A stretch of 64,000 nucleotides of DNA from an uncultured virus (IMG/VR IMGVR_UViG_3300042317_001798). Taxonomy: Duplodnaviria; Heunggongvirae; Uroviricota; Caudoviricetes. The position numbers and the translations under genes were made by a program. This document shows positions 30,776-45,268 of this stretch, piece by piece. The stretch lies in IMG/VR virus record IMGVR_UViG_3300042317_001798, positions 1 to 64,000 of that record. The stretch is one strand, 5' to 3'. The notes below the pieces were generated by a model. The model worked only from the letters and a program-made list of their open reading frames with translations, did not search any database and was not told the DNA's origin. Each line of letters starts with the position of its first letter. Position 1 is the stretch's first letter.

Positions 30776-31606
30776 TCATCTCGGTTCCTGCCAAGATGGA
30801 TAGTCACCTCTTGGCTTATCAAGTGAATTGTTCATTGTTAAGTGTTTTCCAAAAGTATTGATTCCATGTATGAATCCCAAATGCTCTGGAAATTTTAAAT
30901 CGATGCATATGTCTCTCAGTTTTCCGTCGCGAATCTGTTCCCAAATATAAACCATCGTTTCAGAGCCAGTTCTTCCATCCACGTAGAATTTTTCTGCTAT
31001 TAGGTTTAGCATTTCATCTTCCCATTTGGGATTTTTTGGTGTTATTTTGTCTTGAAACAGATGCTCTTTTGGCGGCGACATACTGCCAGACGCAATGAGC
31101 CGATTTACGTATTTTGCTGGAGCGGCAGATACGTGGACATCAAAAAGCCCGCCCGACAACAATGCCGCTGCTTCCCGTGCTGATGGTCCTGAAAGAATCA
31201 TGAGTCGATGCTTTTTATCAGTTAAAGCTTCATCTTCAATGGGGTACCCCCTAATTGCTCCCTCACAGTAGTTATCTGTTAGGCCAGAAACGATGGTCCT
31301 CCACTGGTGTTCTTCCTCGTCTCCATTCAAAGAATTTAAGTCAATATACAAACCTTTGTATTTGTTTATTAATACATTTCTTGGTGTTTCCATGGCTGCA
31401 TCATTTGTGCCTATGCAGATAATCGCCCCACACTCATCAGCAAGCTTCTCCAAAGTGAATAAATTATTTATTCCGCAATCCGATGCTCTGTGTATAGTCT
31501 CCATTGACCTATCCATCGATGCGAAAAATACAGAATGTCCTGCTAATTGCAATGACTTTGCGATTGTTGCACCCATTTTCCCGGGAGAATTAATTCCAAT
31601 TTTCAT
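30776..31606 (-). CDS. NAD(P)-binding dehydrogenase/reductase-like protein (6PGD/HIBADH N-terminal fold)
   Basis: MKIGINSPGKMGATIA Rossmann start; YIDLNS and EGAIRG motifs. Confidence 0.7.
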   Translation of the reverse strand: MKIGINSPGKMGATIAKSLQLAGHSVFFASMDRSMETIHRASDCGINNLFTLEKLADECGAIICIGTNDAAMETPRNVLINKYKGLYIDLNSLNGDEEEHQWRTIVSGLTDNYCEGAIRGYPIEDEALTDKKHRLMILSGPSAREAAALLSGGLFDVHVSAAPAKYVNRLIASGSMSPPKEHLFQDKITPKNPKWEDEMLNLIAEKFYVDGRTGSETMVYIWEQIRDGKLRDICIDLKFPEHLGFIHGINTFGKHLTMNNSLDKPRGDYPSWQEPR

Positions 31607-31615
31607 TGATACGCC

Positions 31616-32392
31616 TCACTTTATTGGACCAACAGGAACAAACTGTTGGACCGAATTTGCTGAATGACTAGTAATAAAATCAAGATGATACGAAAAGTTC
31701 TGCAATTCTTGTCTTTTATGTTCTGCCGGTGGGCTTATATCGAGAACGCCGTGGCAGAACCAGGAAAGATAAGCAAATCTCTCTCCCGTTTCTATTGGTG
31801 TTATCTCATGGCAACCAGAAAAGTTAGAAGGGTACACAACGATTGAACCAAACTTGGGGAATACGGTTATGCCCCATGGGCGGAAACTTAGATTTCCACC
31901 TGTGTATTTATCGTTTAGGAAAATGCTACACGTAAGAGTATTTGCTATTGGTGCCAATGAGATTGGAGTCAAACCATCATCTGCGTATGGGAGATTTGCG
32001 TCGGAATGTGGTCCTATCATTTGTCCCGGAAGATACCTAATTACATGACCCCTGGTCCGCCATTTTACGGCACCTGCGGCAGATGGGAATATCTCCAAGT
32101 ACTTACTGACACAGTTGGTTCCGGAGTCCTCCAAATCGCTCAAGGTTTGAAAATCTTTTTTTTCTATTCCCAAATGATTTACATTTAAGTATCTATGTGG
32201 GGCAATCTTTGCTTGTTCTAAATTGTGGTTATACCCACCAGAATTTTTTAAATTCTCATTACCCAAATTTGAGTAACCCTCATGGTTGGTGGACAGGAGG
32301 AGGTTTTCAAGATACTTATCGACATCTTGTTGTGTTGACTTTATTGCATTGTCAAACTGAACAATTCCATTTCCTAGATGCGTTATGTTCAT
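31616..32392 (-). CDS. 2OG-Fe(II) oxygenase
   Basis: HSD...FLNDKYTGGNL...HEI...GERF. Confidence 0.88.
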   Translation of the reverse strand: MNITHLGNGIVQFDNAIKSTQQDVDKYLENLLLSTNHEGYSNLGNENLKNSGGYNHNLEQAKIAPHRYLNVNHLGIEKKDFQTLSDLEDSGTNCVSKYLEIFPSAAGAVKWRTRGHVIRYLPGQMIGPHSDANLPYADDGLTPISLAPIANTLTCSIFLNDKYTGGNLSFRPWGITVFPKFGSIVVYPSNFSGCHEITPIETGERFAYLSWFCHGVLDISPPAEHKRQELQNFSYHLDFITSHSANSVQQFVPVGPIK

Positions 32393-33300
32393 TAAAAACC
32401 GTCCGAAACCAGAGACATGGCATAGAAGTGTTTATCTGGCCCACAATTTTGTATGTATTCTCTAAAGTCTTTGCGCAAGTTGGGTAGGTAAACGTTTGTA
32501 GAAACCTTTGCAATTTCTGGTTCCTTAACAGGGTCTGCGATGTGCTCGTGATATTCGCTATTTGGGCTTCCGTGTGAATACCAACCCAAATATGAATATC
32601 TCTCCCCCCTGGAAACTGGAAGCACTTCATGTGATGCTATGTAATTTGATGGGAACATTAGTATGTCCCCCTTTCGTGGTTTGTAATTTATATTTAGTTC
32701 GTTAAAGAAATGGTGTCCTCCAGCAAATGAATTTACAGCATCATCGCCAGATTCATCGCAATCGTTAATGTAGACAATGCAGGATAGTGTATTTCTTGTT
32801 GCTAGCTGGTCGGATGGGTGTTCGTATCCATAGACGTAGTCGGCGCTTGTGTCTGAATGGACGCCAAGGTATTGGCGATTACCCACAACTCCAGATGGTG
32901 GAGATGAATACCTAACGATATGCCCCTTAACCTTCCACCAAATATTTTTGTAAGAAAGGGGATATCTGAGCATGTATTTGAGCAAATACCTATCTTTCGA
33001 GTCCTCCCAAAACTCAAGCATTTCCCTAAACTTATCTGAACATTGCTGATGGGCGGACGAACACCTACTTGGCATCGATGCAAATGTGTCGTAATCAAAA
33101 ATGTAGCCGCTCATATTTACTAGCGCTTTTTCGCCAGTTTCGGGATGAATTGTTTCGGTGTACATAGCGGAGGCGTCTCTGTCGACAAGCTCCCTACAGG
33201 AATTAATAGCAAATTCCCAGTCAAAGTCGATAGCCGACGGAAACAGACAAACACCAGCACCAAGTTCCATCATTTCTACGTCATTAAACTTATTAACCAT
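32392..33300 (-). CDS. 2OG-Fe(II) oxygenase
   Basis: HSD...YIND...FPSNYIASHEV...GERY; start moved to ATG 33300. Confidence 0.88.
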   Translation of the reverse strand: MVNKFNDVEMMELGAGVCLFPSAIDFDWEFAINSCRELVDRDASAMYTETIHPETGEKALVNMSGYIFDYDTFASMPSRCSSAHQQCSDKFREMLEFWEDSKDRYLLKYMLRYPLSYKNIWWKVKGHIVRYSSPPSGVVGNRQYLGVHSDTSADYVYGYEHPSDQLATRNTLSCIVYINDCDESGDDAVNSFAGGHHFFNELNINYKPRKGDILMFPSNYIASHEVLPVSRGERYSYLGWYSHGSPNSEYHEHIADPVKEPEIAKVSTNVYLPNLRKDFREYIQNCGPDKHFYAMSLVSDGF

Positions 33301-34126
33301 GGTCATTGCTCCGAGACCTGTGCGCTGCTGCTCTTGCTGGTGGCATTCCGGAATACTTGCCGTTGATGTATTCATCATAGTCTTCAGTGATTGAGCTCAA
33401 CCAAACTTGTCCACCTGTGTCTGAAATCTCCAACTGTGGGTTTATCCCTTTTTCTTGAGATTCTGAGCCCTGGGCAAACCAGGCAAGGTACGTGAGTCTT
33501 TCTCCACTTGTGATAGTGGATATCTCATGGGCGGCTACGTAATTAGCCGGAAACAAAAGTATGTTTCCTTTTTGCGGTTTGATTGCAACGTCTGCATACG
33601 GAAATAACATTTCACCGCCACAAAACGCTCCTGGCGCTGGGGTTTCCGACCAGTCGTTAATGAAAACTATTGCACTCAGAACGTTTCTAGTTGCGTGTTC
33701 CTTGCTGGGCATTTTTCCATATCTGTAGTTCACATCATTATCCGAATGAAGCCCCAGTGAACCACCGGTTGAATAAGAGAGGATATGTCCAGAAGTTCTC
33801 CACCACAGGCAGCTAAGGATTGCTGGAAACATTTCAATGTACTGCAAAAGACAGGAATATATCGCTGGCTCAAATTCGTTGTATATTTCGCTACCCAACC
33901 CTTGTAGTCTGAGTGGAGCTTTTGCCATGTCCTGCAGGCTATAAATAAAACCGCCCTGATTTAGCGCGTGGATTGGATTTCCGTTTTCATCTAGGACAAC
34001 GGTAAAATTTTCTTCTATTGCCTTTTGCTTCAACTTCTCTATCTTGTCTGAAAATTTACTGAATTCGATGTTCGCAGCGGCCACAAACTCGATTATTCCA
34101 TGACCATGATTTATCACGGAGCTCAT
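33293..34126 (-). CDS. 2OG-Fe(II) oxygenase
   Basis: HSD...FIND...GGEMLF...HEI...GERL. Confidence 0.88.
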   Translation of the reverse strand: MSSVINHGHGIIEFVAAANIEFSKFSDKIEKLKQKAIEENFTVVLDENGNPIHALNQGGFIYSLQDMAKAPLRLQGLGSEIYNEFEPAIYSCLLQYIEMFPAILSCLWWRTSGHILSYSTGGSLGLHSDNDVNYRYGKMPSKEHATRNVLSAIVFINDWSETPAPGAFCGGEMLFPYADVAIKPQKGNILLFPANYVAAHEISTITSGERLTYLAWFAQGSESQEKGINPQLEISDTGGQVWLSSITEDYDEYINGKYSGMPPARAAAHRSRSNDHG

Positions 34127-34737
34127 AGCAGGGACCTTATGGCTTGTTTTATTGAATTATCCTCCCCGAATAAAGCCTGCTCCGATATCGGTGATTCCGC
34201 CCAATTAAATCGACCAACATAAACGCCTTCTCGTGATGTTAAGAATTTTTCCCAATTGTTCGGAACCCTCATTGCAACTTCCCCCGCTCTATTTCTTCCA
34301 GCAGCCGCAGCGGCACTCAAGTCGGCCATGCTGTCGTTAAAATTTCTTATTAGCTCTCCATTTAGGAATGAGTAAACGTCATGCCTATTTTGCCCGTTAA
34401 CGTCTATTTTTTCTGCTATCGGAAATGTAACGTAGGGATAATTTTTTTTTATATTTTCAAAAATTTCCAAATTGTCGCCATTCTCCATGTTCCCAAATTG
34501 GTTGCATGGGTAACCGACGACGCTAAAACCGCTATCACAAAATTCTTCATGAAGTTTTTGCAATTCCCAAAAATTTTTAGCTGTTCTTGCATAAGACCAT
34601 AGACGACTGCACTTTGGCGAGTATCCGGTCTTTGATACAACGTTTACATGGAGGAGCACTTTACCCCTTAACTGTCCAAGCAAATTTGGACAGCCATCCA
34701 AAGAGCTTATTTCTATATCAAAAATCGATTTACTCAT
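34123..34737 (-). CDS. Glutathione-peroxidase-fold protein (non-canonical active site)
   Basis: GKVLLHVNVVSKTG, GYPCNQFG, EKIDVNG and NNWEKFL; start moved to ATG 34737. Confidence 0.85.
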   Translation of the reverse strand: MSKSIFDIEISSLDGCPNLLGQLRGKVLLHVNVVSKTGYSPKCSRLWSYARTAKNFWELQKLHEEFCDSGFSVVGYPCNQFGNMENGDNLEIFENIKKNYPYVTFPIAEKIDVNGQNRHDVYSFLNGELIRNFNDSMADLSAAAAAGRNRAGEVAMRVPNNWEKFLTSREGVYVGRFNWAESPISEQALFGEDNSIKQAIRSLL

Positions 34738-35029
34738 CCTCTGACACCGTACATGAGATTTTGGTATTAAGAAATTCACCTATTCTTAGAAAACCGCTTC
34801 CAGATTCCGTATCAATATCGATTTGTACCGTCGTAATAATTGGTGCCTCTAGTTCAAATCTGCTACTTATACTCTTTCCGTTATTGCCGATGACCACATT
34901 TTCTCCAGGCACCACGTGGGTTCCCCTGCTATGGTTGATTGCAATTGAGCCATCTTCGGAAAGAGTTAATCTGCAAACTTCTTCCCCAAATGGTGTATCA
35001 ACGGAGATATCCCAAGACCCCAAAATCAT
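34730..35029 (-). CDS. Small beta-rich hypothetical protein
   Basis: GSWDISVDTPFG start; packed within the operon. Confidence 0.65.
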   Translation of the reverse strand: MILGSWDISVDTPFGEEVCRLTLSEDGSIAINHSRGTHVVPGENVVIGNNGKSISSRFELEAPIITTVQIDIDTESGSGFLRIGEFLNTKISCTVSEDE

Positions 35030-35036: not shown

Positions 35037-35651
35037 TTACTGTGAATTGCGGCCTCTTGCCCAAGGACTCATGTCCGGGTATACCGTTGTATTTGGAATT
35101 CTTGGGTGGAGGTTAAAGCTTACGCAAACTCTAGGTTTGTCTTCATTGTGTCTTTCTGTCTGATGGGGAACAAATGAGTTGAAAAATACAATCTTCCCTG
35201 TTTCTGGTTCTATTTTTGTAACCATGTTGTATGCGTTCATGGCTTCTCCGTAAAGGCAAAGTCGGCATCCTGGACCAACAGCATCGATGTAAATAACACC
35301 AGACCAGTACTCGCTTGGAAAAAGATGCGCATTCGAACTATGTCTATGGTAAGGAGTTGATTGTCCTTTTTCTAAAATTCCACACCATATGTCTGCAAGG
35401 ACAACGTCGCCAAGTACTTCGTTGGCCCTATGCTCAATCATGTCACGCAAACCCTGACACTCTTTTGTGTTTGGCAGAACGTAATCAACCCCACTCTGCA
35501 CGTCAACAAATTCTTTTGCATCTGGGAAATCTGGATGTATTCTAGATTCCAAAATTTGAGACGCTATTACCGAATAATCAATTCCTTTAATGAATGATTC
35601 ATGGGCTCTGATTGGAACTAACCAAATCCAGCCATTGTTATTCATGCGCAA
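35037..35651 (-). CDS. Putative 2OG-Fe(II) oxygenase (TIGR02466-like)
   Basis: HRH...WSGVIYI...PETGKIVFFNSFVPH...RVCVSFN. Confidence 0.82.
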   Translation of the reverse strand: MRMNNNGWIWLVPIRAHESFIKGIDYSVIASQILESRIHPDFPDAKEFVDVQSGVDYVLPNTKECQGLRDMIEHRANEVLGDVVLADIWCGILEKGQSTPYHRHSSNAHLFPSEYWSGVIYIDAVGPGCRLCLYGEAMNAYNMVTKIEPETGKIVFFNSFVPHQTERHNEDKPRVCVSFNLHPRIPNTTVYPDMSPWARGRNSQ

Positions 35652-36309
35652 AATCTCCTGTTGCTAGCCCCATTGGGGGAACATCTTTTGTCCATACATT
35701 AATGACCATTACTTGCCTTAGTCTAGACCCTGCTGGTGTCGTGTTATGTACCACATGGCCGGAATCAAATACTACGAGCCTGTTCCCCTTGTACCTAATC
35801 CTCTCTCTTTCATTTGGTGGAGAAGACGCGTATGCGGCAAGTACAGATGGCTCCAAGGCCAACGTTGAGCCATCCTCCAACCTTGAGTTGTGGATTTCGA
35901 GAAAGCCACCGTCATCATTATCGCATCCATACCAAACACAGCCAATCCGCGGTCCGTAAAACGTACCTGTCAACAGATATGCAAATGTATCCTCATCTAC
36001 ATGCTCCCCTATGAACTGACCTGGTTCGAATGTCCTGGTCCAGTATTCGAAACCAATGACCTCTTCAATCGGAAAAGGTAATCTCTTTTTCCAGATTTCT
36101 TTTATAACTAAATGCTTGAGGCTTCTTGGTTGGCTTTTCCCCCATCCATCCCAAAACATATAGGACGATAGCTCCTTGGAATCCCCGTGATACGAGTTGA
36201 GACTTGTCGCTATTTGTTGACCATCTTCATATTTCGACGCGAAAAAAGTTTCATCGCGCAAGACTTGTTCGTACAATTCTGCCGGAACGCAGTTATCTTC
36301 AACGAACAT
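35638..36309 (-). CDS. 2OG-Fe(II) oxygenase
   Basis: FEYWTR...HVDED...NRLVVFDSGHVVH...RQVMVINVW. Confidence 0.8.
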   Translation of the reverse strand: MFVEDNCVPAELYEQVLRDETFFASKYEDGQQIATSLNSYHGDSKELSSYMFWDGWGKSQPRSLKHLVIKEIWKKRLPFPIEEVIGFEYWTRTFEPGQFIGEHVDEDTFAYLLTGTFYGPRIGCVWYGCDNDDGGFLEIHNSRLEDGSTLALEPSVLAAYASSPPNERERIRYKGNRLVVFDSGHVVHNTTPAGSRLRQVMVINVWTKDVPPMGLATGDFAHE

Positions 36310-38877: not shown

Positions 38878-39102
38878 CTACGAGTTAAGTTCATTCAGCT
38901 TGCGCTTAATCAGTTTTACTGCATTTATTGACTCATTGAGGATTGGGACCTCGAAATTGTGCTCAGCCTCAAGAATAAATGTGTCTGGGTCTATTCCGTG
39001 CCCAATCAGTCTTTCAAACAACACCTTTTCGGCGTCCCTAAGGCTGCGCTCAAATATCCCGCGCTTCTCGTTATTTGTCAATTGAGACGAAAATTCCATC
39101 AC
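38878..39102 (-). CDS. Small helical protein (GxDP-type paralogue)
   Basis: LTNNEK...HGIDPDT; GGAG SD. Confidence 0.7.
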   Translation of the reverse strand: MMEFSSQLTNNEKRGIFERSLRDAEKVLFERLIGHGIDPDTFILEAEHNFEVPILNESINAVKLIKRKLNELNS

Positions 39103-39142: not shown

Positions 39143-39850
39143 TTATACTATGGGCTCCGAAAGTGCTGGCAGCCCAGCAAATGTTGGGCCTATTTGATTT
39201 CCGTCCGCGTCAAGACCTGTCTTAATGCCCTTTGTCCAAGTCCATGGGCGTTCGATATTGTTCTGCGACTTGAGTTGACCATATTTTGACCTTGCCTCCA
39301 CCAGCTCCTTATCGTCCCATAGTGTCACTACCTCGAATTCTGCGTCTTTAATGATTTGAGGCGAGTAGATGTTAAAAAAACACAAAGGCGAACCGGCTGG
39401 GAAAACTACTTCCTGATTTTCTTTTGTTATCTTCCAGTTCATTTGAACTTCGTCAGGCCACCACCACGAAGGAATCGTTGCTGACAGCCCGACAGCGCCG
39501 TCTATAAAGTAATTTGGAGAGCCCGAAATCCAAGTCTCATACCCTGGCTCGGTGTTTATAATCCATCCCATGTGTAGGGAAATGGTTCCTATTATTGATG
39601 ATGTGGCTTGCTTTCTGCCGCTTTTAGTAAATTCGCCTGCAAGTATTTCGGGGGGAGTGTTTCCGCCGGACCATTTAATTACAAGGTCCTCCTCCATCTG
39701 CACTTCCCATCCCATTACATTCGCCACGGAGACTGGCATGCATTGATAAGCGTGTTTTTTATGTGTCTCGTCCATCCAGTCTCTCTTTAATCTTGACTGA
39801 ACTATCCGAGGTGGATTTGGGTCTGTTCTTTTTAAAACTATCTTGCTCAT
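39143..39850 (-). CDS. DUF6065-like protein
   Basis: RDWMD...HAYQCMPVSVANVMGW...GSPN...MNWKIT. Confidence 0.7.
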   Translation of the reverse strand: MSKIVLKRTDPNPPRIVQSRLKRDWMDETHKKHAYQCMPVSVANVMGWEVQMEEDLVIKWSGGNTPPEILAGEFTKSGRKQATSSIIGTISLHMGWIINTEPGYETWISGSPNYFIDGAVGLSATIPSWWWPDEVQMNWKITKENQEVVFPAGSPLCFFNIYSPQIIKDAEFEVVTLWDDKELVEARSKYGQLKSQNNIERPWTWTKGIKTGLDADGNQIGPTFAGLPALSEPIV

Positions 39851-40566
39851 TTCTTTACCGACATATCAATACTTGTTCCAGACGAAACCCCAGCCCCATA
39901 TGTTGCCTTTGAGCCGTCAATATTCTCCCCGTAGCCATGTTTGTGAGTTCTGTCGTTGTAGTCAAACATGGTCACTGCCGCATACTTTGTTCCAGAAACA
40001 ACAGGTCGCGACGCGTGGGCATACGTAAACGTAGATGGGAACATTACGTTGTCCCCAGCGGCAAACTTCACGTTTAGGTCAAGATATGGGAACCAAAGCT
40101 CACCCCCCTCGTAGTCGTCATTTATGTATATGACTGACGAAACTGTACAGTTATAAGAAAATCCATGGTCTGTGTGAACGTTGAAGTGCTGACCAGGCTT
40201 ATATCGCACATAATTTATGGCTTCACGATAATCCATTTTGATGTTAAATCTTTGCTGATAGTCGTTAAGACATGCCGTTAATATTTCAACGGTATCTTCG
40301 TATACTGAGCGAAGTCCGGAAAATTCTTGTGGCAAGTTTGCTATATGGGCATCTCCCAATTTACAATCAACGCAGTCTCTGTATTCTGGCATTTTTTGTT
40401 GGTCGCCAACGAGTGCATCCATCCACATATACGGCGCGGTTTCACTGGACCCAATCGCCTCTTCAATTCTCTCCGGTATGTTCAATTCCCGTGGGAGCGC
40501 ATTGCGATAGACGATTATTGCCAATCTCGGGTCTCCAATAAACTCAACCTCGATATTTCTTACCAT
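39847..40566 (-). CDS. 2OG-Fe(II) oxygenase (prolyl 4-hydroxylase-like)
   Basis: YKPGQHFNVHTD...YINDDYEGGEL...HAS...GTKY. Confidence 0.9.
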   Translation of the reverse strand: MVRNIEVEFIGDPRLAIIVYRNALPRELNIPERIEEAIGSSETAPYMWMDALVGDQQKMPEYRDCVDCKLGDAHIANLPQEFSGLRSVYEDTVEILTACLNDYQQRFNIKMDYREAINYVRYKPGQHFNVHTDHGFSYNCTVSSVIYINDDYEGGELWFPYLDLNVKFAAGDNVMFPSTFTYAHASRPVVSGTKYAAVTMFDYNDRTHKHGYGENIDGSKATYGAGVSSGTSIDMSVKK

Positions 40567-41098
40567 ATTGGTTGCTCCTTTTTTGTTTATGTTTCATAGA
40601 AAACCACATTGGGCATGCCCACCTATCCCCTCCGTATACATTATCTACATAATGAGCAAATTCAATACCGCCACCATAAATTACAACCCGGCCTGGGGAT
40701 GGCTTCACGGTATTGCCCGTATCGGCAAAAACAAGTTCCCCCCCATTGAATTCTTGGTTCAAATACAGAACCGCAGACACATCAAAGTCCTCACACCCAA
40801 GCTTTGGTGAGCCATCCAAATTCTGCCTGTCTGCGTGCAGTGTTGGGACATGAAGTCCAGATTTGCTGACAAAAATTCCGGGCATTCTATGCTCAAGTTC
40901 AATGTCATATTTTTTCTCTGCGGCTGCCATGACAACCCATGATGCAAATATCAATGACTCGGCGGCTTCAAAATCTTCTGTCAGTAGTCTGTCAATTCCA
41001 ATACTTTCGCCAATTTTTACTGCCGCCGACAATATTTTGGAAATAGTCGTATCTTCAAAAAGCGAATCTATGATATGTACTTTGTCTACTCTATTCAT
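40544..41098 (-). CDS. 2OG-Fe(II) oxygenase
   Basis: HAD...YLNQEFNGGEL...HYV...GDRW; start moved to ATG 41098. Confidence 0.88.
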   Translation of the reverse strand: MNRVDKVHIIDSLFEDTTISKILSAAVKIGESIGIDRLLTEDFEAAESLIFASWVVMAAAEKKYDIELEHRMPGIFVSKSGLHVPTLHADRQNLDGSPKLGCEDFDVSAVLYLNQEFNGGELVFADTGNTVKPSPGRVVIYGGGIEFAHYVDNVYGGDRWACPMWFSMKHKQKRSNQYGKKYRG

Positions 41099-41726
41099 CC
41101 ACAACAGTATAGAACGATGGGGTCGTATATCTCTCCCCAGATTCAACCATGCTTACCCCGTGTAAGTACCCAACATCACCAGGATGTATCACTGCCAAGC
41201 CGGGTTTTGGTCTAACGGTAATCCCGTGCTGTGGGTAATACAAATCGCCACCCTCAAAGTCGTCATTGTAATAGAACAATGAATTGATGTCGTAATCCGT
41301 GAAGGCGTTTGGTCTTCCGTCATTTAGTTGCTTATCGGCATGGGGGCGCTGCTCTATGCCTGCCCGCCATTTCATTATCACCGGAGGGCGCACTGAAACA
41401 GAAACCTGAAAAAGCTCTTCGATGAGGTTCTTCATTTTGTAGATGTATTTATCAACAATTTCATAAACCTCCGAGTTCAGCTCCTTTAAAATTTCAGAAC
41501 TGCACTGCCTGTCGTTCCAGTATTCTGCGTTATACAAACATGTTCCATCTTCCGCATAAACGCTTTCGGCTGTGTTGTTCCATTTATTTATTGTTGGGCA
41601 AAATTTCTGAACTAAGAGCAAGTCTTCTAGTTCGATAAAATTTTCAATTATGTGGATGTTCTCTGGTCCGCTGCCAAAATGCCCGGGTTTTATCTTCCAG
41701 GGTGAATCGATATCAATCATTTCCAT
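41091..41726 (-). CDS. 2OG-Fe(II) oxygenase
   Basis: HAD...YYNDDFEGGDL...HGV...GERY. Confidence 0.9.
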   Translation of the reverse strand: MEMIDIDSPWKIKPGHFGSGPENIHIIENFIELEDLLLVQKFCPTINKWNNTAESVYAEDGTCLYNAEYWNDRQCSSEILKELNSEVYEIVDKYIYKMKNLIEELFQVSVSVRPPVIMKWRAGIEQRPHADKQLNDGRPNAFTDYDINSLFYYNDDFEGGDLYYPQHGITVRPKPGLAVIHPGDVGYLHGVSMVESGERYTTPSFYTVVDE

Positions 41727-42501
41727 GTGATTTCCTTTGGGACGTTATATGTTCATACAACATAACATCCAATTTGCTTCTTTCAAGTATTTCCTTTTTT
41801 TGTGACGGGCTCGGTTTTATTCCAGCTCGGACCGATGAGTTCATTTTTTCTAAACCCAACCCTACAAATTCAACATTGAATTTATCCTTAAATTGATAAG
41901 TCAAATATTTTTCTACGGCCATTCGCTCGTTCATTTCAAAAATTGTAATGTCTTTAATTCTGTCTATTAGTTCTTTTTCTCCAGTAGGTAAATCGGACTC
42001 GACAAACCATGCACCATTAGGCTGAATACTAACCCCTGGTGATTCATCCCCAACATCTAAGACTGCATTGATTTCAACCATCCTGCACGTAAGCATCTTG
42101 GTTTGCAAATTTCCGTCAGATGAAAACAATTTACATCCAAAAATTGTTTCGTATTTTCCGTCTAAGAACTTGTCAAGAATTTCGTTTGTAAATTCCCTTC
42201 GGGACGACATGGCCCTGTATGCAGCAATGCTGACAAAATGGTCTACCGGCTCCCTTATAACGGAGAACGTCTCCAGGCTGCTGTCGTTGTGTAAAATTGG
42301 ATTGATTGCAAAATGACCACTAATTGTGGGCCATTCGCTCATTGTTATGTGATTATATGAAAATTCAAAAATCCCAGGGGTTTGGTTTTCGTATTTATCA
42401 AGACCCTTTTTGTATCTATCCAGTTCAAACGATTTATGTATTGCGTAAAGTATTCCGGTCCCAGATGTGCGCGGTATATGCAGATGATAAAGATTACCCA
42501 T
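41713..42501 (-). CDS. Sulfotransferase-family (Sulfotransfer_2-like) protein
   Basis: YHLHIPRTSGT (5'-PSB loop), SGHF, REPVDHFVS (3'-PB) and LDVMLY. Confidence 0.75.
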   Translation of the reverse strand: MGNLYHLHIPRTSGTGILYAIHKSFELDRYKKGLDKYENQTPGIFEFSYNHITMSEWPTISGHFAINPILHNDSSLETFSVIREPVDHFVSIAAYRAMSSRREFTNEILDKFLDGKYETIFGCKLFSSDGNLQTKMLTCRMVEINAVLDVGDESPGVSIQPNGAWFVESDLPTGEKELIDRIKDITIFEMNERMAVEKYLTYQFKDKFNVEFVGLGLEKMNSSVRAGIKPSPSQKKEILERSKLDVMLYEHITSQRKSHGND

Positions 42502-43078
42502 TTTGGGCCATCTCTATTAATTTCCTGTGTTTTTCTGGAACCCAGAAGTGGGGAGATGTATATCTAACTCCTTCTATCACTTGCCTTACGCCATGGAGGT
42601 AATAACTGCTGGATGGAAAAAATATCAAAGAACCCTCTTTTGGTTTTAGTTCAAGTCCGTGTTGCGGAAAATATATTTCCCCACCTGTGTAATTCTGATT
42701 TATATAAATTACGGAACCGTAATCAACTATGTATGTTCCGTTTGGCGTGCCGTCTAGGTCTTCGCCATCCGCGTGAAGACCTTGACTCTCCCCAGAGTCC
42801 CATCTTCGTATGCCCGGTCTTGCTGTCTCTAGGATTCTCCCAAATTTAAACTCAATCATTTTCTTTACGTCATCAACGTATGATTGCATTATTTCATAGA
42901 GTTCGGGGTTATCCTTCTGCATTTTTTTGTATGTGGATATCTTGTCATTACCGCCCTTTGACCATGACTCCCACTCATTGATTGAATAGCAATAGCGATA
43001 TGCAAGTTCGACGTGTTCGGGCGTCATAAAATTTTCTACTACAACTATGTTTGATTTGTCGGCAGCTGCAGCTCTCAT
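42494..43078 (-). CDS. 2OG-Fe(II) oxygenase
   Basis: HAD...YINQNYTGGEI...HGV...GVRY. Confidence 0.9.
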   Translation of the reverse strand: MRAAAADKSNIVVVENFMTPEHVELAYRYCYSINEWESWSKGGNDKISTYKKMQKDNPELYEIMQSYVDDVKKMIEFKFGRILETARPGIRRWDSGESQGLHADGEDLDGTPNGTYIVDYGSVIYINQNYTGGEIYFPQHGLELKPKEGSLIFFPSSSYYLHGVRQVIEGVRYTSPHFWVPEKHRKLIEMAQNG

Positions 43079-43088
43079 GGCTACAACC

Positions 43089-44024
43089 TTATCTATTTTG
43101 CAAAAACTCGTCTATATCAGCGCTTATGAGCTGCAACGAAAAATCTATGCCTTTTCTCTGGGTGATATTTGGCCAAGCGGTACCAGTTTTTGAGTACGAG
43201 ATGTGGCCAGGTTCTTCTACGTGTTCAGTTTTTGGCTTGTAGTAACGACGTCCATTTTCATCGTATCTTTCTTCAAGCCATGGAAACATTTCTCCGTCTG
43301 GATTTCTCTCCCCAAGCAAAAATCCATTTGCATAACGCTTGATTCTTGTTCCAGTTCTATCGATAAGGAACTTTTCAAAATTGCCTCGGAGAGGATAAAA
43401 CCCACGTTTTCCTGTATCAACTTTTGCGTAACCATCTGGTGTTAGCTCATTCGAGAAAGACCAAGGTATTTCCTCATAATGGTATGGCACTCCGTTTGGT
43501 TGGAGGTCTGCTTTGTATGCTCCAGTTAAGTACCACCACAGGTCGTGCTGTTCTTGCATTTTAATTTTTCCTGGAACAAAATTCTCATCGTAGGTATGTT
43601 TATCAAATCTTCCATTTGTTAATTCAGAAAATTGATACGTAACACCAAAATTCTCTTTCGCGTACTGTTCAGACAATTGGCCCGGCGTGATATCTAGTTC
43701 ATTTTTATCCAAGTACGCCTGGAGACCTTCTTGAAATTCGGGATATCCGTGGCAAACAAAATCATCAACAACAACCGCAAGAATATCAAAATCATCTTCG
43801 TTTTTGTATTTTTGATTTAATTCTTCGATTACGGAGTGTTGTGGAATATTCCCACATCCAGCCGACACATTAAAAATAAGAGTAACTTTTCCCTTGCGGT
43901 TTTTTAGTATGTCTGATGATTTTCCATCAGCTGACGACAAATTAATGTCATATATGGAAAACGGAAGAACCGTGTCACTCCAATCATTTTCCGCAATTGG
44001 CGCTTCTTGTATTTCGCAGTCCAT
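43089..44024 (-). CDS. Glutathione-peroxidase-fold protein (divergent, with insertions)
   Basis: KGKVTLIFNVSAGCGNIPQH and GNFEKFLIDRTG; ATG overlaps the upstream stop (TGATG). Confidence 0.78.
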   Translation of the reverse strand: MDCEIQEAPIAENDWSDTVLPFSIYDINLSSADGKSSDILKNRKGKVTLIFNVSAGCGNIPQHSVIEELNQKYKNEDDFDILAVVVDDFVCHGYPEFQEGLQAYLDKNELDITPGQLSEQYAKENFGVTYQFSELTNGRFDKHTYDENFVPGKIKMQEQHDLWWYLTGAYKADLQPNGVPYHYEEIPWSFSNELTPDGYAKVDTGKRGFYPLRGNFEKFLIDRTGTRIKRYANGFLLGERNPDGEMFPWLEERYDENGRRYYKPKTEHVEEPGHISYSKTGTAWPNITQRKGIDFSLQLISADIDEFLQNR

Positions 44025-45268
44025 CACTTAAACCCTGGTGGGAAAAACGGCGGGAAGAAAGGTGGGAAAAATGGCGGGAAGAAAGGTGGGAAGAACGGTG
44101 GAAAGAAAGGCGGGAAAAATGGCGGGAAAAATGGAGGAAAGTATGGAGGGAAATATGGAGGGAAATATGGAGGAGCTACCGGGCTTACTGAACCAGACGA
44201 AGCAGAGGTCTGGAATCCGTAGCTATTGGTTGCTCTTACGGTGAATGTATAGGCAGTACCGTTGGTGAGACCTGTAACGGTAATAGGAGAAGTTCCAGAG
44301 GCCTGAACGTTTCCTGGCGATGAAATTGCAGTGAATGTTGTGGAACCAGTTCCCGCAGCTCCTGCAGTAAATGAGACAGTCACTTGAGCGTTTCCTGCAG
44401 CACCAGATACCCCAGTTGGTGCACCCGGCCTGTTTCCTGCCGTCACCGAGTTTGACGCAGCAGAAGTTGCTGAACCATACACAGAAGATGCGGTAACGGT
44501 AAATGTATATGCTTGACCTGCGGTTAAACCCGTAGCCCTAATTGGGCTTGTTCCGGTAAAGGTCAATGCCCCAGGACTCGTTGTTACTGTGTATGTGGGA
44601 GAACCAGTTCCAGTCGCGCCTGGTGTGAATGGAACATCAATCGCCCTATCTACGTTTTGAACAATTACAGCGGTGCCTATTGCTGGGGCAGTTGGTTTGT
44701 TCCCGGCAACTACTGAGTTTGATGCAGCAGAAGTTGCTGCACCGAACAAGTTTGATGCGGTAACAGTAAATGTGTAAGAGGTTCCAGCAGTTAGGCCAGT
44801 CACTCTAATAGGACTGGAGCCAGTTGCGGTAATTCCTTCCGGCGAAGATGTTGCCGTAAACGTTGTCGCTCCAGTACCAGCTGCACCAGCCGTATAAGCA
44901 ACGTCTATAGCTCTATCTGTGTTTGCAACGATTGATGCAGTTCCGATTGTAGGAGCACCTGGGTTTTGGCCGATTGCAACAGATGATGTGGAAACAGAAT
45001 CTGATGGAACGCCATAATTTGTTGTTGCAACAAGAGAGAATGTATAGCTCGTACCAGCAGTAAGACCAGTTACTGTTATTGGCGAACTTGAGGCGGAGGC
45101 GCTAATGCTTCCCGGGTTTGATGTAGCGGTATAGGTTATTGCATCTTTACCTATATACTCAGACGGCGTAAAAGATATTGAAGCCACAGTGCCCACGCCG
45201 GTATTCGTCGCTGTGACGTTAGTTGGCGTAGTTGGCTTTTTCCCACCACTGTCTTTTATTGCTTCCAT
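44024..45268 (-). CDS. Four-FN3-domain fibre-tip protein with (PPxF)12 C-terminal tail
   Basis: Four GLTxGxxYTF FN3 repeats, then PPYF x3, PPFF x8, PPGFK. Confidence 0.85.
   Translation of the reverse strand: MEAIKDSGGKKPTTPTNVTATNTGVGTVASISFTPSEYIGKDAITYTATSNPGSISASASSSPITVTGLTAGTSYTFSLVATTNYGVPSDSVSTSSVAIGQNPGAPTIGTASIVANTDRAIDVAYTAGAAGTGATTFTATSSPEGITATGSSPIRVTGLTAGTSYTFTVTASNLFGAATSAASNSVVAGNKPTAPAIGTAVIVQNVDRAIDVPFTPGATGTGSPTYTVTTSPGALTFTGTSPIRATGLTAGQAYTFTVTASSVYGSATSAASNSVTAGNRPGAPTGVSGAAGNAQVTVSFTAGAAGTGSTTFTAISSPGNVQASGTSPITVTGLTNGTAYTFTVRATNSYGFQTSASSGSVSPVAPPYFPPYFPPYFPPFFPPFFPPFFPPFFPPFFPPFFPPFFPPFFPPGFK
44030..44173 (-). repeat. 12-nt period coding repeat (Pro-Pro-Tyr/Phe/Gly-Phe x12)
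   Basis: Directly visible; synonymous codons vary between units. Confidence 0.95.

What the first reader, a model, noticed from the sequence alone, without database searches (positions are those of the whole stretch)
30776..45268. (PPYF)3(PPFF)8PPGFK tail heading a ~13 kb run of about 20 modifier-like genes
Seen: four FN3 domains end in 12 perfect-period Pro-Pro-X-Phe units. Synonymous codons differ between units, which argues for selection on the peptide rather than recent slippage. The stop codon overlaps the next start (TGATG). Downstream on the same strand are 10 2OG-type oxygenases, 2 GPx folds, sulfotransferase-, methyltransferase-, DUF6065- and dehydrogenase-like genes. Inference: the tail offers Pro, Phe and Tyr for hydroxylation, then sulfation, methylation or cross-linking, giving a modified adhesive or receptor-binding rod. 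A tandem-core precursor that is cleaved is an alternative, but no protease was recognised. PPFF is also the motif of the cyclic peptides antamanide and cyclolinopeptide A, which may be coincidence.
Basis: partly seen in the sequence, partly recalled or inferred. Interest (0 to 1): 0.87.

Follow-up and report, generated by a model that had tools for sequence, protein, structure and literature searches.

The report
Phage Pro-Phe tail with hydroxylase battery
An uncultured lake phage ends a tail-fibre accessory protein in a 49-residue proline/phenylalanine/tyrosine repeat and encodes ten collagen-hydroxylase-like enzymes right behind it, and because repeat and enzymes travel together in many phage fragments the repeat is a testable candidate for what these long-unexplained phage enzymes modify.

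Summary
On the minus strand, 44024-45268 encodes four FN3 modules ending in (PPYF)3(PPFF)8PPGFK. Its stop overlaps the next start. Behind it lie 10 2OG-oxygenase-like genes, 2 GPx-like genes, DUF6065 and sulfotransferase-, methyltransferase- and dehydrogenase-like genes.

- The repeat is under strong peptide-level selection: 20-31 synonymous against 3-8 non-synonymous codon differences in 52 codons.
- Of 26 C-terminal PPFF tails in viral contigs, 25 have oxygenases downstream and 0 upstream.
- Of 51 DUF6065-anchored loci, 50 have such a tail upstream.
- Of 56 fibre-anchored loci, 46 have tail and oxygenase, and 0 have a tail without an oxygenase.
- In sister strains, sequence identity breaks exactly at the start of the tail, so the tail is inherited with the enzymes.
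- The most conserved oxygenase folds like the chlorovirus collagen prolyl hydroxylase.
- DUF6065 has a dUTPase fold, like the odd member of the Syn9 dioxygenase array.

My best reading, at about 0.5, is that the tail is hydroxylated and perhaps further decorated on a fibre-tip protein. No chemistry is shown. The RiPP and antamanide ideas find no support.

This scan noted the same kind of cassette eight times before on other DNA. I found nothing in print.

The parts
44024..45268 (-). FN3x4 protein (P0001, 414 aa) with a C-terminal Pro-Pro-aromatic-Phe tail. It is probably a fibre-tip accessory protein.
   Evidence: Translation. Pfam fn3 E 2.1e-17. Follows a gene with the conserved fibre C-terminal module. 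Relatives carry 2-4 FN3 modules and the same tail.
44027..44173 (-). The tail itself: (PPYF)3(PPFF)8PPGFK, residues 366-414.
   Evidence: 20-31 synonymous against 3-8 non-synonymous codon differences to 18 diverged equal-length tails. 83 of 115 distinct C-terminal tracts end in FK.
45272..46072 (-). Fibre-like protein (266 aa) carrying the conserved C-terminal module (...GVTINATPG.K.RAQWS.ATLIKRA.DTWV..GDL.A) that precedes tail genes.
   Evidence: PHROG virion structural / minor tail families. Homologues lie in 50 of the 120 PPFF loci, mostly directly upstream of the tail gene.
43089..44024 (-). GPx-fold protein (P0122, 312 aa) with an insert of about 110 aa. It keeps a Cys in NVSAGCG. Its start overlaps the tail gene's stop.
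   Evidence: Pfam GSHPx E 1.3e-6. PDB sequence hits to GPx/Hyr1 over residues 24-97 and 205-246. Sequence.
42494..43078 (-). 2OG-Fe(II) oxygenase, PF13640 type.
   Evidence: Pfam E 6.6e-8, 33.8 bits, over cut-off. HxD and distal His aligned.
41713..42501 (-). Sulfotransferase-like protein (P0124, 262 aa). This label is a lead only.
   Evidence: No Pfam hit at E 5. Atlas feature score 0.97, with 25 of 30 hits in clusters where 31-39% of members carry PF03567. Motif HIPRTSGTG. Homologues lie next to FN3-type tails in 6 loci.
41091..41726 (-). Core oxygenase of the cassette, with a prolyl-hydroxylase fold.
   Evidence: Orthologues at 35-80% identity in more than 50 loci. Model pLDDT 92.9. Top PDB fold match is chlorovirus collagen prolyl hydroxylase 5c5t, E 1.2e-9, followed by P3H1, PHD2 and Cr-P4H.
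40544..41146 (-). 2OG-Fe(II) oxygenase, PF13640 type.
   Evidence: Pfam E 3.3e-9.
39847..40566 (-). 2OG-Fe(II) oxygenase, PF13640 type.
   Evidence: Pfam E 2.7e-10. Nearest PDB sequence is Bacillus anthracis prolyl 4-hydroxylase, E 2.4e-5.
39143..39850 (-). DUF6065 protein with a dUTPase-like fold and an invariant Cys37.
   Evidence: Pfam E 4.3e-43. Alignment of 20 sequences. Model pLDDT 77. Foldseek top hits are trimeric dUTPases, E 7.9e-6, 13% identity.
37784..39102 (-). Five small ORFs (74, 81, 71, 102 and 102 aa) of unknown role.
   Evidence: No Pfam or PHROG hit. Four of the five have homologues in 3-4 related loci.
37066..37791 (-). Class I SAM-methyltransferase-like protein (P0125). This label is a lead only.
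   Evidence: No Pfam hit. Atlas features 0.92 and structure TM 0.55 to methyltransferase clusters.
36313..37029 (-). Aspartyl/asparaginyl beta-hydroxylase-type 2OG oxygenase.
   Evidence: Pfam PF05118 E 2.6e-24.
35037..36309 (-). Two further oxygenase-like genes: 35638-36309 (weak) and 35037-35651 (PF13759).
   Evidence: Pfam E 4.1e-5, below cut-off, and E 2.8e-11.
34123..34779 (-). Second GPx-fold protein (P0123). The usual catalytic Cys position reads Thr.
   Evidence: Pfam GSHPx E 3.7e-26. Sequence. The motif position is recalled, not tested.
31616..34126 (-). Three more PF13640 oxygenases: 33293-34126, 32392-33378 and 31616-32392.
   Evidence: Pfam E 1.1e-9, 2.9e-12 and 3.4e-9.
30776..31606 (-). 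Rossmann / NAD-binding dehydrogenase-like protein (weak).
   Evidence: Pfam NAD_binding_2 E 0.0036, below cut-off. PDB best E 0.0095. Homologues in 6 PPFF loci.
52409..54791 (-). Second, smaller cassette outside the finding. It holds an FN3 protein P0126 with PPPPPP, (SPPP)5 and Cys-rich ends, then a GNAT-like protein, then a PF13640-type oxygenase.
   Evidence: Translations. Pfam fn3 and GNAT. PHROG 2OG oxygenase E 5e-27.

Best explanation
The window is part of an uncultured contractile-tailed lake phage. Gene 44024-45268(-) encodes an accessory protein of a tail-fibre cassette. It has four FN3 modules and a free C-terminal polymer of 12 Pro-Pro-aromatic-Phe units. This polymer is most likely the protein substrate, or the main one, of the battery of prolyl-hydroxylase-like Fe(II)/2-oxoglutarate oxygenases encoded directly behind it. 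Tail plus enzymes form one mobile cassette.

Shown:
- The tail is real and is kept at the peptide level while its codons drift.
- The order fibre module, tail gene, oxygenases, DUF6065 is kept across many contigs.
- The association holds from either side.
- Strain mosaics break at the start of the tail.
- The enzymes have the prolyl-hydroxylase fold and the metal and 2OG ligands.

Inferred:
- During infection the different oxygenases hydroxylate the prolines (C4 or C3) and perhaps the aromatic residues of the tail.
- The sulfotransferase-like and methyltransferase-like proteins then decorate the new hydroxyls.
- The GPx-fold thiol proteins and the dehydrogenase-like protein deal with redox side reactions.
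- The otherwise very hydrophobic tract becomes a stiff, polar polyproline-II-type rod at the fibre tip that contacts the host surface.
For: 1. Tail and overlap.

2. Selection. Against 18 diverged tails of equal length, 20-31 of 52 codons differ synonymously and 3-8 non-synonymously. In the 100 codons just upstream, the 13 rows in register show 33-42 synonymous and 22-39 non-synonymous differences.

3. Forward association. Of 68 PPFF loci with at least 3 kb downstream, 51 have window-type oxygenases downstream and 5 upstream. For C-terminal tails the figures are 25 of 26 downstream and 0 of 26 upstream. DUF6065 is downstream in 43 and upstream in 0.

4. Reverse association. Of 80 loci anchored on DUF6065, a Pro/aromatic tract ends an upstream same-strand ORF in 50 of the 51 with at least 5 kb upstream and in 38 of the 38 with at least 8 kb. 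Only 1 tract lies elsewhere.

5. Third anchor, the fibre C-terminal module. Of 56 loci with at least 5 kb downstream, 46 are tail+OXY+, 0 tail+OXY-, 7 tail-OXY+ and 3 tail-OXY- (Fisher p 0.004, uncorrected for relatedness). The background rate of such tracts is 9 of 3107 ORFs.

6. Large proteins with internal PPFF linkers mostly lack adjacent oxygenases. In 3 of 5 such records oxygenase arrays lie elsewhere, including 13 matches in the one complete record. Both arrays I fetched are headed by their own Pro/Phe-tract gene.

7. Mosaic. Two sister strains are 97-100% identical to the window from 29146 to 44145. Identity falls to 76% and 80% in the bin 44146-44445, where the tail starts at 44173. 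Contigs of three DNA runs leave the window's sequence at 44126.

8. Backbones. Two complete records that carry the cassette have no homologue of this window's terminase.

9. Enzymes. The HxD His is invariant in 11 of 11 paralogues and the Asp is present in 10 of 11. The distal His and the K/R are aligned in 9 of 11. Nearest PDB sequences are the B. anthracis prolyl 4-hydroxylase, PiuC, LH3 and P3H1. The best fold match is the chlorovirus collagen prolyl hydroxylase.

10. The window holds a second FN3 protein with Pro-rich tails, again followed by an oxygenase.

11. The tail is the most Pro-rich tract of the window, and there are no collagen-type GXY runs.
Against: - No chemistry of any kind is shown, and no virion or expression data exist. 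One metatranscriptome holds only short low-depth pieces that may be DNA.
- All loci are metagenomic and many are related or redundant. 9 of the 80 DUF6065 loci are the window's own phage. The counts are therefore not independent events, and conserved synteny alone could give them.
- 7 of 56 fibre-anchored loci have oxygenases without a tract that meets my rule. Four have a short degenerate tail and 1 oxygenase, one has (PPYF)3PPRFK and 5 oxygenases, and two (L291, L292) show no tail at all with 5 oxygenases.
- 17 of 68 PPFF loci have no oxygenase within 6 kb.
- The third fibre cassette of the window (27087-30754, + strand) has an oxygenase behind a tip protein without a Pro-rich tract.
- Syn9-type arrays in cultured cyanophages follow Gly-rich fibre proteins, not PPFF.
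- Tail length predicts oxygenase number only weakly (Spearman 0.33, n 50).
- Pro-Pro-Phe-Phe is not a known prolyl-hydroxylase substrate (from recall).
Confidence: 0.5

Rival explanations
1. The tail is a purely structural or anchoring element of a fibre-tip protein: a hydrophobic polyproline rod, an oligomerisation element or a membrane-contact element. The oxygenases act on something else, such as small molecules (as proposed for cyanophage arrays), host proteins or nucleic acids. On this reading the two are neighbours only because both sit in the variable region behind the fibre genes.
For: - Iyer et al. 2010 (PMC2938197, passages read) proposed secondary-metabolite roles for the Syn9 array. 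That array also follows fibre genes but has no PPFF protein.
- L291 and L292 have 5 oxygenases and no visible tail.
- Oxygenase number tracks tail length only weakly.
- An oxygenase also follows the Pro-poor tip protein P0128.
Against: - The association holds from three independent anchors, with 0 of 46 tails lacking oxygenases.
- Distant arrays have their own tract gene at their head.
- The strain mosaic boundary puts the tail with the enzymes and not with the fibre body.
- The folds are those of protein prolyl hydroxylases.
- No halogenase, NRPS, PKS or transporter lies in the cluster.
Confidence: 0.27
2. The tail is a tandem-core precursor of small modified peptides (RiPP-like). The FN3 part or the small N-domain would serve as leader, and the repeat would be modified, cut out and released.
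For: - There are many tailoring-type enzymes behind a repetitive peptide.
- One class of tail proteins is small, about 110-160 aa with an N-domain of about 60 aa.
- PPFF occurs in known cyclic peptides (recalled).
Against: - No protease, cyclase, RiPP recognition element or exporter was recognised in 25 proteins.
- The units follow each other without spacers or cleavage motifs.
- Tract length varies from 39 to 153 aa.
- The carriers are FN3 and fibre-context proteins.
- In some variants the tract is followed by a Hint-like or Cys-rich domain, which would leave it attached to the N-terminal body.
Confidence: 0.08
3. The Pro-Pro run is a translational device. Ribosomes pause on consecutive prolines just before the overlapping stop/start (TGATG), which would tune expression of the enzyme genes behind.
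For: - There are twelve Pro-Pro pairs directly before a stop that overlaps the next start.
- The tail is inherited with the downstream genes.
- That Pro-Pro motifs stall ribosomes without EF-P is established knowledge, recalled here.
Against: - Position 4 is almost always Phe and position 3 aromatic: 1152 of 1215 units are PPFF, PPYF, PPHF or PPWF. Stalling does not need this.
- 83 of 115 tails keep the ending FK.
- The gap to the first downstream oxygenase is 60 to over 1500 bases in most loci.
- Tracts also occur inside large proteins.
Confidence: 0.05

Closest known systems
Chlorovirus PBCV-1 collagen prolyl 4-hydroxylase (vCPH, PDB 5c5t/5c5u) and that virus's own Pro-rich repeats
   Same: A virus encodes a prolyl-hydroxylase-fold enzyme and, in the same genome, proline-rich repeat proteins that can serve as its substrates. 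vCPH is the best fold match of the cassette's core oxygenase (E 1.2e-9, 12-16% identity).
   Different: - PBCV-1 is a eukaryotic virus with one enzyme. Here a phage carries ten diverged paralogues (17-26% identity) plus accessory genes.
- The repeat here is Pro-Pro-aromatic-Phe, not Pro-Ala-Pro-Lys.
- Repeat and enzymes are adjacent and co-inherited here.
- The PBCV-1 substrate work (Eriksson et al. 1999) is recalled. I did not see the paper.
Tandem dioxygenase array of Synechococcus phage Syn9 (gp41-gp54), described in silico by Iyer, Abhiman, de Souza and Aravind 2010 (PMC2938197; passages read)
   Same: - A phage array of about ten diverged 2OG dioxygenases.
- The array includes a protein with a dUTPase fold and a conserved Cys. 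Here that is DUF6065 with invariant Cys37.
- The array lies directly behind fibre genes in both phages.
- The same paper proposes hydroxylation followed by sulfation for bacterial collagen-like and tail-collar proteins.
   Different: - Syn9 has two tryptophan halogenases and a JmjC-type member. Neither was found here.
- Syn9 has no Pro/Phe polymer, and its preceding fibre proteins are Gly-rich.
- DUF6065 shows no significant profile match to Syn9 gp43 or to any isolate phage.
- The authors proposed small-molecule products, not a protein substrate, for the phage arrays.
Bacterial prolyl 4-hydroxylases acting on collagen-like proteins (Bacillus anthracis P4H, PDB 3itq/5hv0)
   Same: Nearest solved sequences to two of the window's oxygenases (E 2.4e-5 and 0.012). 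Same PF13640 family.
   Different: The window has no collagen-type Gly-X-Y run of 6 or more units. The candidate substrate has a 4-residue unit without Gly.
Plant extensins and mussel foot proteins (hydroxylated Pro/Tyr-rich structural and adhesive repeats). This is an analogy from recall.
   Same: These are short Pro- and aromatic-rich repeats that become functional after hydroxylation by 2OG or other oxygenases. The window's second tip protein carries an extensin-like (SPPP)5.
   Different: There is no sequence kinship. Extensin cross-linking uses haem peroxidases, whereas the peroxidase-like genes here are GPx-fold thiol proteins. Nothing is known of modification here.

Membership tests
Fe(II)/2-oxoglutarate oxygenases of the prolyl 4-hydroxylase type (Pfam PF13640, 2OG-FeII_Oxy_3) | Profile match over the curated cut-off | tested here: met
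   8 of the 10 oxygenase-like genes in 30776-44027 score over the cut-off of their best Pfam family: 6 on PF13640, 1 on PF13759 and 1 on PF05118. 41091-41726 (22.8 bits) and 35638-36309 (24.9 bits) fall below 27.
Fe(II)/2-oxoglutarate oxygenases of the prolyl 4-hydroxylase type (Pfam PF13640, 2OG-FeII_Oxy_3) | His-x-Asp...His metal triad and a basic 2OG-binding residue about 10 residues after the distal His | tested here: met
   In the alignment of 11 paralogues, the first His is invariant (11 of 11) and the Asp is present in 10 of 11. The distal His and the following K/R are aligned in 9 of 11. 35638 and 35037 align poorly there.
Fe(II)/2-oxoglutarate oxygenases of the prolyl 4-hydroxylase type (Pfam PF13640, 2OG-FeII_Oxy_3) | Double-stranded beta-helix fold closest to protein prolyl hydroxylases | tested here: met
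   Only one paralogue was folded (41091-41726), with pLDDT 92.9. The top matches are vCPH 5c5t, P3H1, PHD2, PiuC, Cr-P4H 2jig and B. anthracis P4H, all at E below 1e-7.
Fe(II)/2-oxoglutarate oxygenases of the prolyl 4-hydroxylase type (Pfam PF13640, 2OG-FeII_Oxy_3) | Hydroxylation of peptidyl proline | not testable with these tools
   This needs enzyme assays or mass spectrometry.
Syn9-type phage tandem dioxygenase array (Iyer et al. 2010) | Tandem array of many diverged classical 2OG dioxygenases | tested here: met
   10 in 13 kb at 17-26% mutual identity.
Syn9-type phage tandem dioxygenase array (Iyer et al. 2010) | Accompanying dUTPase-fold protein with a conserved cysteine | tested here: met
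   The DUF6065 model matches trimeric dUTPases (E 7.9e-6). Cys37 is invariant in 20 sequences. Direct kinship to Syn9 gp43 is not shown (hhalign probability 1.4%).
Syn9-type phage tandem dioxygenase array (Iyer et al. 2010) | JmjC/MINA-type member and tryptophan halogenases | tested here: not met
   No JmjC/cupin-4/8 or halogenase family was found among 25 proteins at E 0.01.
RiPP biosynthetic cluster with a tandem-core precursor | Leader or core boundaries with a protease, cyclase or exporter in the cluster | tested here: not met
   None was recognised by Pfam or PHROGs in 25 proteins. The units abut without spacers.
Collagen-like or extensin-like hydroxylase substrates | Gly-X-Y runs (collagen) or Ser-Pro(3-4) runs (extensin) | tested here: inconclusive
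   No run of 6 or more Gly-X-Y units occurs in any ORF of 80 aa or more. The tail is neither type. The second tip protein P0126 has (SPPP)5.
Glutathione peroxidase family (PF00255) | Profile match and peroxidatic Cys in the NVAS-x-C-G motif | tested here: inconclusive
   Both genes score over the Pfam cut-off (28.4 and 91.3 bits). P0122 reads NVSAGCG and keeps the Cys, but has an insert of about 110 aa. P0123 reads NVVSKTG, with no Cys there. The motif is recalled.

The most novel reading that the evidence does not exclude
Phages carry a portable 'polymer plus tailoring battery' cassette. A ribosomally made Pro-Pro-aromatic-Phe polymer on a fibre-tip protein is converted by up to ten site-specialised prolyl-hydroxylase-like oxygenases into a heavily hydroxylated, possibly sulfated or methylated polyproline-II rod. 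A dUTPase-fold Cys protein, GPx-fold proteins, a sulfotransferase-like enzyme and a methyltransferase-like enzyme would take part. The product would be an extensin- or mussel-glue-like material made by a virus for host adhesion. This would be a new class of virion post-translational modification. It would also give the first substrate for the phage dioxygenase arrays that have been unexplained since 2010.
Probability: 0.35. Interest if true: 0.9.

Novelty: new variant of a known kind. Interest (0 to 1): 0.78.

Why it matters
Tandem 2OG-oxygenase arrays are among the most conspicuous unexplained gene sets of aquatic phages. They are usually filed as 'auxiliary metabolic genes' of unknown substrate. 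A conserved, co-inherited, genetically encoded polymer directly in front of the array turns that open question into a simple experiment: one peptide, a handful of enzymes and a mass spectrometer.

If the tail is the substrate, three things would follow:
- It would show extensive enzymatic tailoring of phage receptor-binding apparatus.
- It would give a new family of peptide hydroxylases with a defined short motif.
- It would suggest a new kind of proline/aromatic biomaterial.

If the tail is not the substrate, the tail itself remains an unexplained, widespread phage protein module. It is phage-restricted, under strong peptide-level selection and marked by an ...FK end.

Tried and rejected
- Complex prediction of three copies of residues 283-414 (last FN3 plus tail, with a 12-row alignment) gave 'no answer', score 0.00. 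It says nothing either way.
- My first script for Pro/Phe tracts upstream of DUF6065 missed all C-terminal tails, because its windows ran over the stop codon. I corrected it. The numbers are void.
- Megablast of 30776-48816 against isolate phages found only a 156-base, 76% match in a structural gene of Synechococcus phage S-H9-2. tblastn of DUF6065 and blastn of the tail DNA (low-complexity filter on) found nothing.
- The whole-protein homologue search was swamped by generic FN3 proteins (5408 hits) and said little about the tail. The tail-only search gave 30 hits, none with an informative name ('hypothetical protein' or generic repeat labels only).
- The cyanophage idea: the oxygenases' best isolate matches are cyanomyoviruses, but at 26-32% identity, and there they sit among photosynthesis and nucleotide genes without this cassette. 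The terminase is nearest to Gordonia phages and psiM2 at 42-44%. The phage is therefore not a T4-like cyanophage. The host remains unknown, and an actinobacterial host is only a guess.
- hhalign of DUF6065 against Syn9 gp43 gave probability 1.4%.
- The first alignment of the fibre C-terminal module (21 sequences) was too diverse for a locus search. A 9-sequence subset worked.
- RNA evidence: one metatranscriptome run holds 5% of the sampled words, and 8 listed pieces of 150-250 bases lie on the cluster at depth 2-6. That is not enough to claim transcription.
- Tyr spacing: Tyr-bearing units recur at a lag of 3 units (114 pairs against 83.6 +/- 6.1 in shuffles) and at lag 1 (146 against 97.5 +/- 6.0). 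A 12-residue super-period fits a three-residue-per-turn polyproline helix, but it could equally come from duplication of 36-base blocks. I keep it as a hint only.
- No tRNA genes were found.
- Literature searches: PPFF + phage found 2 irrelevant papers, DUF6065 found 0, and phage + prolyl hydroxylase/hydroxyproline/tail fiber/virion found 3 irrelevant papers. The cyanophage oxygenase listing was seen as a listing only.

Full report
**1. What is there**

The genes of the finding lie on the minus strand. Window 44024-45268(-) encodes a 414-residue protein (P0001).
- It has four FN3-like modules. The strand motif TGLT(A/N)G..YTF occurs four times, and Pfam fn3 scores E 2.1e-17.
- After ...SPVA it continues as (PPYF)3(PPFF)8PPGFK and stops. 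That is 12 units of Pro-Pro-x-Phe plus a terminal Lys, residues 366-414, window 44027-44173.
- The eight PPFF units are written with six different 12-base words.
- The stop TGA shares its A with the ATG of the next gene, giving TGATG.

**2. The run of genes behind it**

In order on the minus strand:

| Coordinates | Assignment |
|---|---|
| 43089-44024 | GPx-fold protein with an insert of about 110 residues; PDB sequence hits to GPx/Hyr1 |
| 42494-43078 | PF13640 oxygenase |
| 41713-42501 | 262-aa protein, no Pfam hit; language-model look-alikes are Sulfotransfer_2 clusters (0.97); reads HIPRTSGTG |
| 41091-41726, 40544-41146, 39847-40566 | Three more oxygenases |
| 39143-39850 | DUF6065 (E 4e-43) |
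| 37784-39102 | Five small ORFs |
| 37066-37791 | 241-aa protein whose look-alikes are class I SAM methyltransferases (0.92; TM 0.55) |
| 36313-37029 | Asp/Asn beta-hydroxylase-type oxygenase |
| 35638-36309, 35037-35651 | Two more oxygenase-like genes |
| 34730-35029 | 99-aa ORF |
| 34123-34779 | Second GPx-fold protein |
| 33293-34126, 32392-33378, 31616-32392 | Three more PF13640 oxygenases |
| 30776-31606 | Weak Rossmann/NAD-binding protein |

This makes ten 2OG-type genes, eight of them over Pfam's own cut-offs. No protease, cyclase, halogenase or transporter was recognised.

In an alignment of these oxygenases with two more from the window, the first His of HxD is invariant (11 of 11) and the Asp is present in 10 of 11. 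The distal His and the basic residue about ten positions later are aligned in 9 of 11. Mutual identity is only 17-26%.

**3. Context**

The window belongs to a 76.5-kb viral record estimated 51% complete, and it holds only this one PPFF site.
- It has a terminase, tail sheath and baseplate J.
- The fibre cassettes converge on the enzyme cluster.
- Upstream of the tail gene lie fibre and virion structural genes: 57991-60714, 54788-57967, 49144-52164, 46051-48816 and 45272-46072.
- The terminase is nearest to Gordonia phages and psiM2 at 42-44%.
- The oxygenases' best isolate matches are cyanomyoviruses at 26-32%. There they lie among unrelated genes.
- DNA of this phage is held by 19 lake or freshwater metagenome runs. 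One contig of 15.4 kb is identical over 30700-45550.

The host is unknown.

**4. The tail is a recurrent phage module**

All hits are read in the PPFF frame inside ORFs.
- The same pattern hit 10 stretches in 9 contigs of the 596-Gb prokaryote collection. All are MAG contigs. Six carry the same phage cassette and four are short spurious ORFs.
- No isolate phage has the tail DNA or DUF6065.
- Among 81 distinct tails of six or more units, the unit counts are PPFF 779, PPYF 321, PPHF 36 and PPWF 16. Position 4 is almost always Phe.
- Over all fetched loci there are 174 distinct tract-to-stop sequences. In 115 the tract ends within 12 residues of the stop, and 83 of those end in FK. Tract length runs from 39 to 153 residues, median 72.
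- The carriers differ: one to four FN3 modules, a small N-domain of about 60 residues, and large proteins with internal PPFF linkers. In some variants the tract is followed by a Cys-rich end or a Hint-like start.
- A variant with a six-residue unit, (x-Pro-Pro-Gly-Phe-Phe)n...PPAFK, also exists.

**5. Selection**

I compared the window's tail with 21 distinct tails of equal length.
- Three are the window's own phage or sister strains, with 0-4 synonymous and 0 non-synonymous differences.
- The 18 diverged tails differ at 20-31 codons synonymously and 3-8 non-synonymously, out of 52 codons.
- In the 100 codons just upstream (the last FN3 module), the 13 rows in register differ at 33-42 codons synonymously and 22-39 non-synonymously.
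- I dropped 2 rows without 100 upstream codons and 3 rows clearly out of register.

The peptide, not the DNA, is conserved.

**6. Association with the enzymes, tested from three anchors**

*(a) From the tail.* My ORF caller lost 10 of the 120 loci, leaving 110. Of these, 68 have at least 3 kb downstream.

| Feature | Downstream | Upstream |
|---|---|---|
| Oxygenase homologous to the window's (blastp E<1e-5) | 51 | 5 |
| DUF6065 | 43 | 0 |
| GPx-like | 17 | 0 |
| Fibre-like genes | 8 | 42 |

By type of tail protein:
- C-terminal tails: 25 of 26 have oxygenases downstream.
- Tracts not at the C-terminus in proteins under 600 aa: 24 of 32.
- Proteins of 600 aa or more: 3 of 11. One protein falls in two classes.

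*(b) From DUF6065.* The 80 loci are 58-100% identical to the window's DUF6065, and 9 of them are the window's own phage or near it. A Pro/aromatic tract ends an upstream same-strand ORF in 58 of the 64 with at least 3 kb upstream, in 50 of the 51 with at least 5 kb, and in 38 of the 38 with at least 8 kb. One tract lies elsewhere.

*(c) From the conserved C-terminal module of the fibre-like gene.* There were 596 confirmed hits and 80 were kept. Of the 56 with at least 5 kb downstream, 46 are tail+OXY+, 0 tail+OXY-, 7 tail-OXY+ and 3 tail-OXY-. Fisher p is 0.004, not corrected for relatedness. The background rate of such tracts is 9 of 3107 other ORFs.

The seven tail-OXY+ exceptions break down as follows:
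- Four have a degenerate short tail and only one oxygenase.
- One has (PPYF)3PPRFK, below my window length, with five oxygenases.
- Two have no visible tail, with five oxygenases.

**7. The apparent exceptions**

Eight large proteins with internal PPFF linkers have no oxygenase within 6 kb. I searched five of their records whole.
- Three hold PF13640 matches elsewhere: 13 in the one complete record, 6 in a 54% record and 1 in a 50% record.
- The two without any are 28-31% fragments.
- I fetched the flanks of the two arrays. Each is headed by its own Pro/Phe-tract gene. One is a 365-aa ORF with a 148-residue tract directly upstream of the array. The other is a tract ORF at the contig start, 6 kb upstream of the array.

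**8. Inheritance**

Two sister strains (L131, L133) are 97-100% identical to the window in every 300-base bin from 40246 to 44145, and about 98% on average down to 29146.
- Identity drops to 76% and 80% in the bin 44146-44445. The tail begins at 44173.
- Upstream, L133 stays at 55-83% through the FN3 body and the fibre genes.
- L131 recovers to 92-99% between 44446 and 45345, then falls again.
- Contigs of three DNA runs leave the window's sequence at 44126 with one shared continuation.

The tail therefore segregates with the enzyme cluster, not with the body of its own protein. The shared tail DNA may itself be the recombination site.

The cassette also occurs in at least two backbones. Two complete records that carry it lack any homologue of this terminase, and a third record has one at 68%.

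**9. What the enzymes look like**

- Sequence searches of the PDB put two oxygenases nearest to the Bacillus anthracis prolyl 4-hydroxylase, PiuC, lysyl hydroxylase LH3 and P3H1.
- The most conserved oxygenase of the cassette is 41091-41726, with orthologues at 35-80% identity in more than 50 loci. It folds with pLDDT 92.9.
- Its best PDB match is the collagen prolyl hydroxylase of chlorovirus PBCV-1 (5c5t, E 1.2e-9). Human P3H1, PHD2, PiuC and the Chlamydomonas and B. anthracis enzymes follow.
- DUF6065 folds, with pLDDT 77, into a beta-barrel that matches trimeric dUTPases (E 7.9e-6, 13% identity). It has an invariant Cys37.

**10. Comparison with what is known**

Iyer et al. 2010 (PMC2938197, passages read) described the Syn9 cluster. 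[quoted passage not shown] They proposed secondary-metabolite synthesis for it. For bacterial clusters they proposed that collagen-like or tail-collar proteins are hydroxylated and then sulfated.

The present cassette shares the diverged array, the dUTPase-fold Cys protein and the position behind fibre genes. It lacks the halogenases and a JmjC member, and it adds the Pro/Phe polymer. Syn9's preceding fibre proteins are Gly-rich instead. Kinship of DUF6065 with Syn9 gp43 is not shown.

The chlorovirus hydroxylase with that virus's Pro-rich repeats is the closest working analogue (the substrate work is recalled). I found no paper on PPFF repeats in phages, on DUF6065, or on hydroxyproline in phage fibres. 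These searches cover open-access papers and bioRxiv only.

This scan's own earlier notes describe the same kind of cassette on eight other stretches of DNA. I re-tested their main claims here rather than relying on them.

**11. Reading**

The best-supported explanation, at about 0.5, is that the tail is the substrate, or a main substrate, of the oxygenase battery on a fibre-tip accessory protein. The chemistry and the role of the accessory genes are inferred, not shown.

Two further observations in the window fit a general link between tip proteins and oxygenases:
- A second FN3 protein (53820-54791) has PPPPPP, (SPPP)5 and Cys-rich ends. It is followed by a GNAT-like gene and an oxygenase.
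- A third cassette lies on the plus strand. A fibre-like gene (27087-28109) is followed by the Cys-rich tip protein 28111-29211 and then by oxygenase 29630-30754. Its tip protein is not Pro-rich, which also warns that proline tracts may not be the only target.

The rivals are oxygenases acting on other substrates (0.27), a RiPP-like precursor (0.08) and a translational pausing device (0.05).

**12. Verdict**

This is a real, strongly conserved, phage-restricted module. Its substrate-enzyme hypothesis is well supported by genomics and easily testable, but biochemically untested. I class it as a new variant of a known kind (viral prolyl hydroxylases with Pro-rich repeats; phage dioxygenase arrays).

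Noticed in passing
window 52409-54791 (-): A second tip-protein/oxygenase set. P0126 (53820-54791) has FN3 modules, then PPPPPP, a Cys-rich stretch, an extensin-like (SPPP)5 and the end ...CFIDPKLGPICC. A GNAT-like gene (53253-53783) and a PF13640-type oxygenase (52409-52996) follow. The ending PKLGP.C also closes some PPFF tails in other contigs (e.g. L008).
   Followed up: partly
window 27087-30754 (+): A third cassette converges on the cluster: a fibre-like gene with the same C-terminal module, then a Cys-rich 366-aa protein (28111-29211) without a Pro-rich tract, then a 374-aa oxygenase (29630-30754).
   Followed up: partly
window 45223-45268, 54740-54791 (-) and 28111-28160 (+): The three proteins that follow fibre C-terminal-module genes start alike: MEAIKDSGGKKPT, VIPGNQASGGKFIDPP and MIPGIVEAGGGRILPT. 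The FN3-tail relatives start M..KDSGGK.P. This may be the part that docks on the fibre.
   Followed up: no
window 44146-44445 and loci L131, L133: There is a sharp mosaic boundary between sister strains exactly at the FN3/tail junction. Assembly forks lie at 44036-44126 in three lake metagenomes. The shared repeat may act as a recombination site for swapping fibre bodies.
   Followed up: partly
window 41655-41726 (-), alignment A6: The core oxygenase family keeps an N-terminal motif P-(G/S)-G-(H/F/W)-F-G, with G15 and G18 invariant and F17 nearly so. It resembles the tails' endings (PPGFGPGFK). It could be a pseudo-substrate, but that is pure speculation.
   Followed up: no
loci L241, L248, L250, L259, L264, L276, L294: A variant tail has a six-residue unit, (Ser/Gly/Ala)-Pro-Pro-Gly-Phe-Phe, again ending in PPAFK or PPGFK and again followed by oxygenases and DUF6065.
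   Followed up: partly
loci L006, L031, L050, L069, L083 and others: In some contigs the Pro/Phe tract is followed directly by a Hint/intein-like start (e.g. ...PPRFG-CINEDTLILT). Self-cleavage there would again leave the tract as a free C-terminus.
   Followed up: no
window 7020-9020 (+): A ParB_N-domain gene is followed by a PAPS-reductase-domain gene. I saw no link to the sulfotransferase-like gene.
   Followed up: no
window 49144-52164 (-): The 1006-aa fibre protein starts with an Mtd_N domain (major tropism determinant N-terminal, E 2.6e-10) and has glycine-zipper stretches. I did not look for a reverse transcriptase or template repeat.
   Followed up: no
window 57991-60714 (-): A 907-aa protein matches PHROG 23524 in seven stretches (E 8e-121). 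It is an internally repeated structural protein of unknown role.
   Followed up: no
window 37784-39102 (-): Five small ORFs (71-102 aa) lie between DUF6065 and the methyltransferase-like gene. Four have homologues in 3-4 related loci (three of them in the same place), and none matches any family.
   Followed up: no
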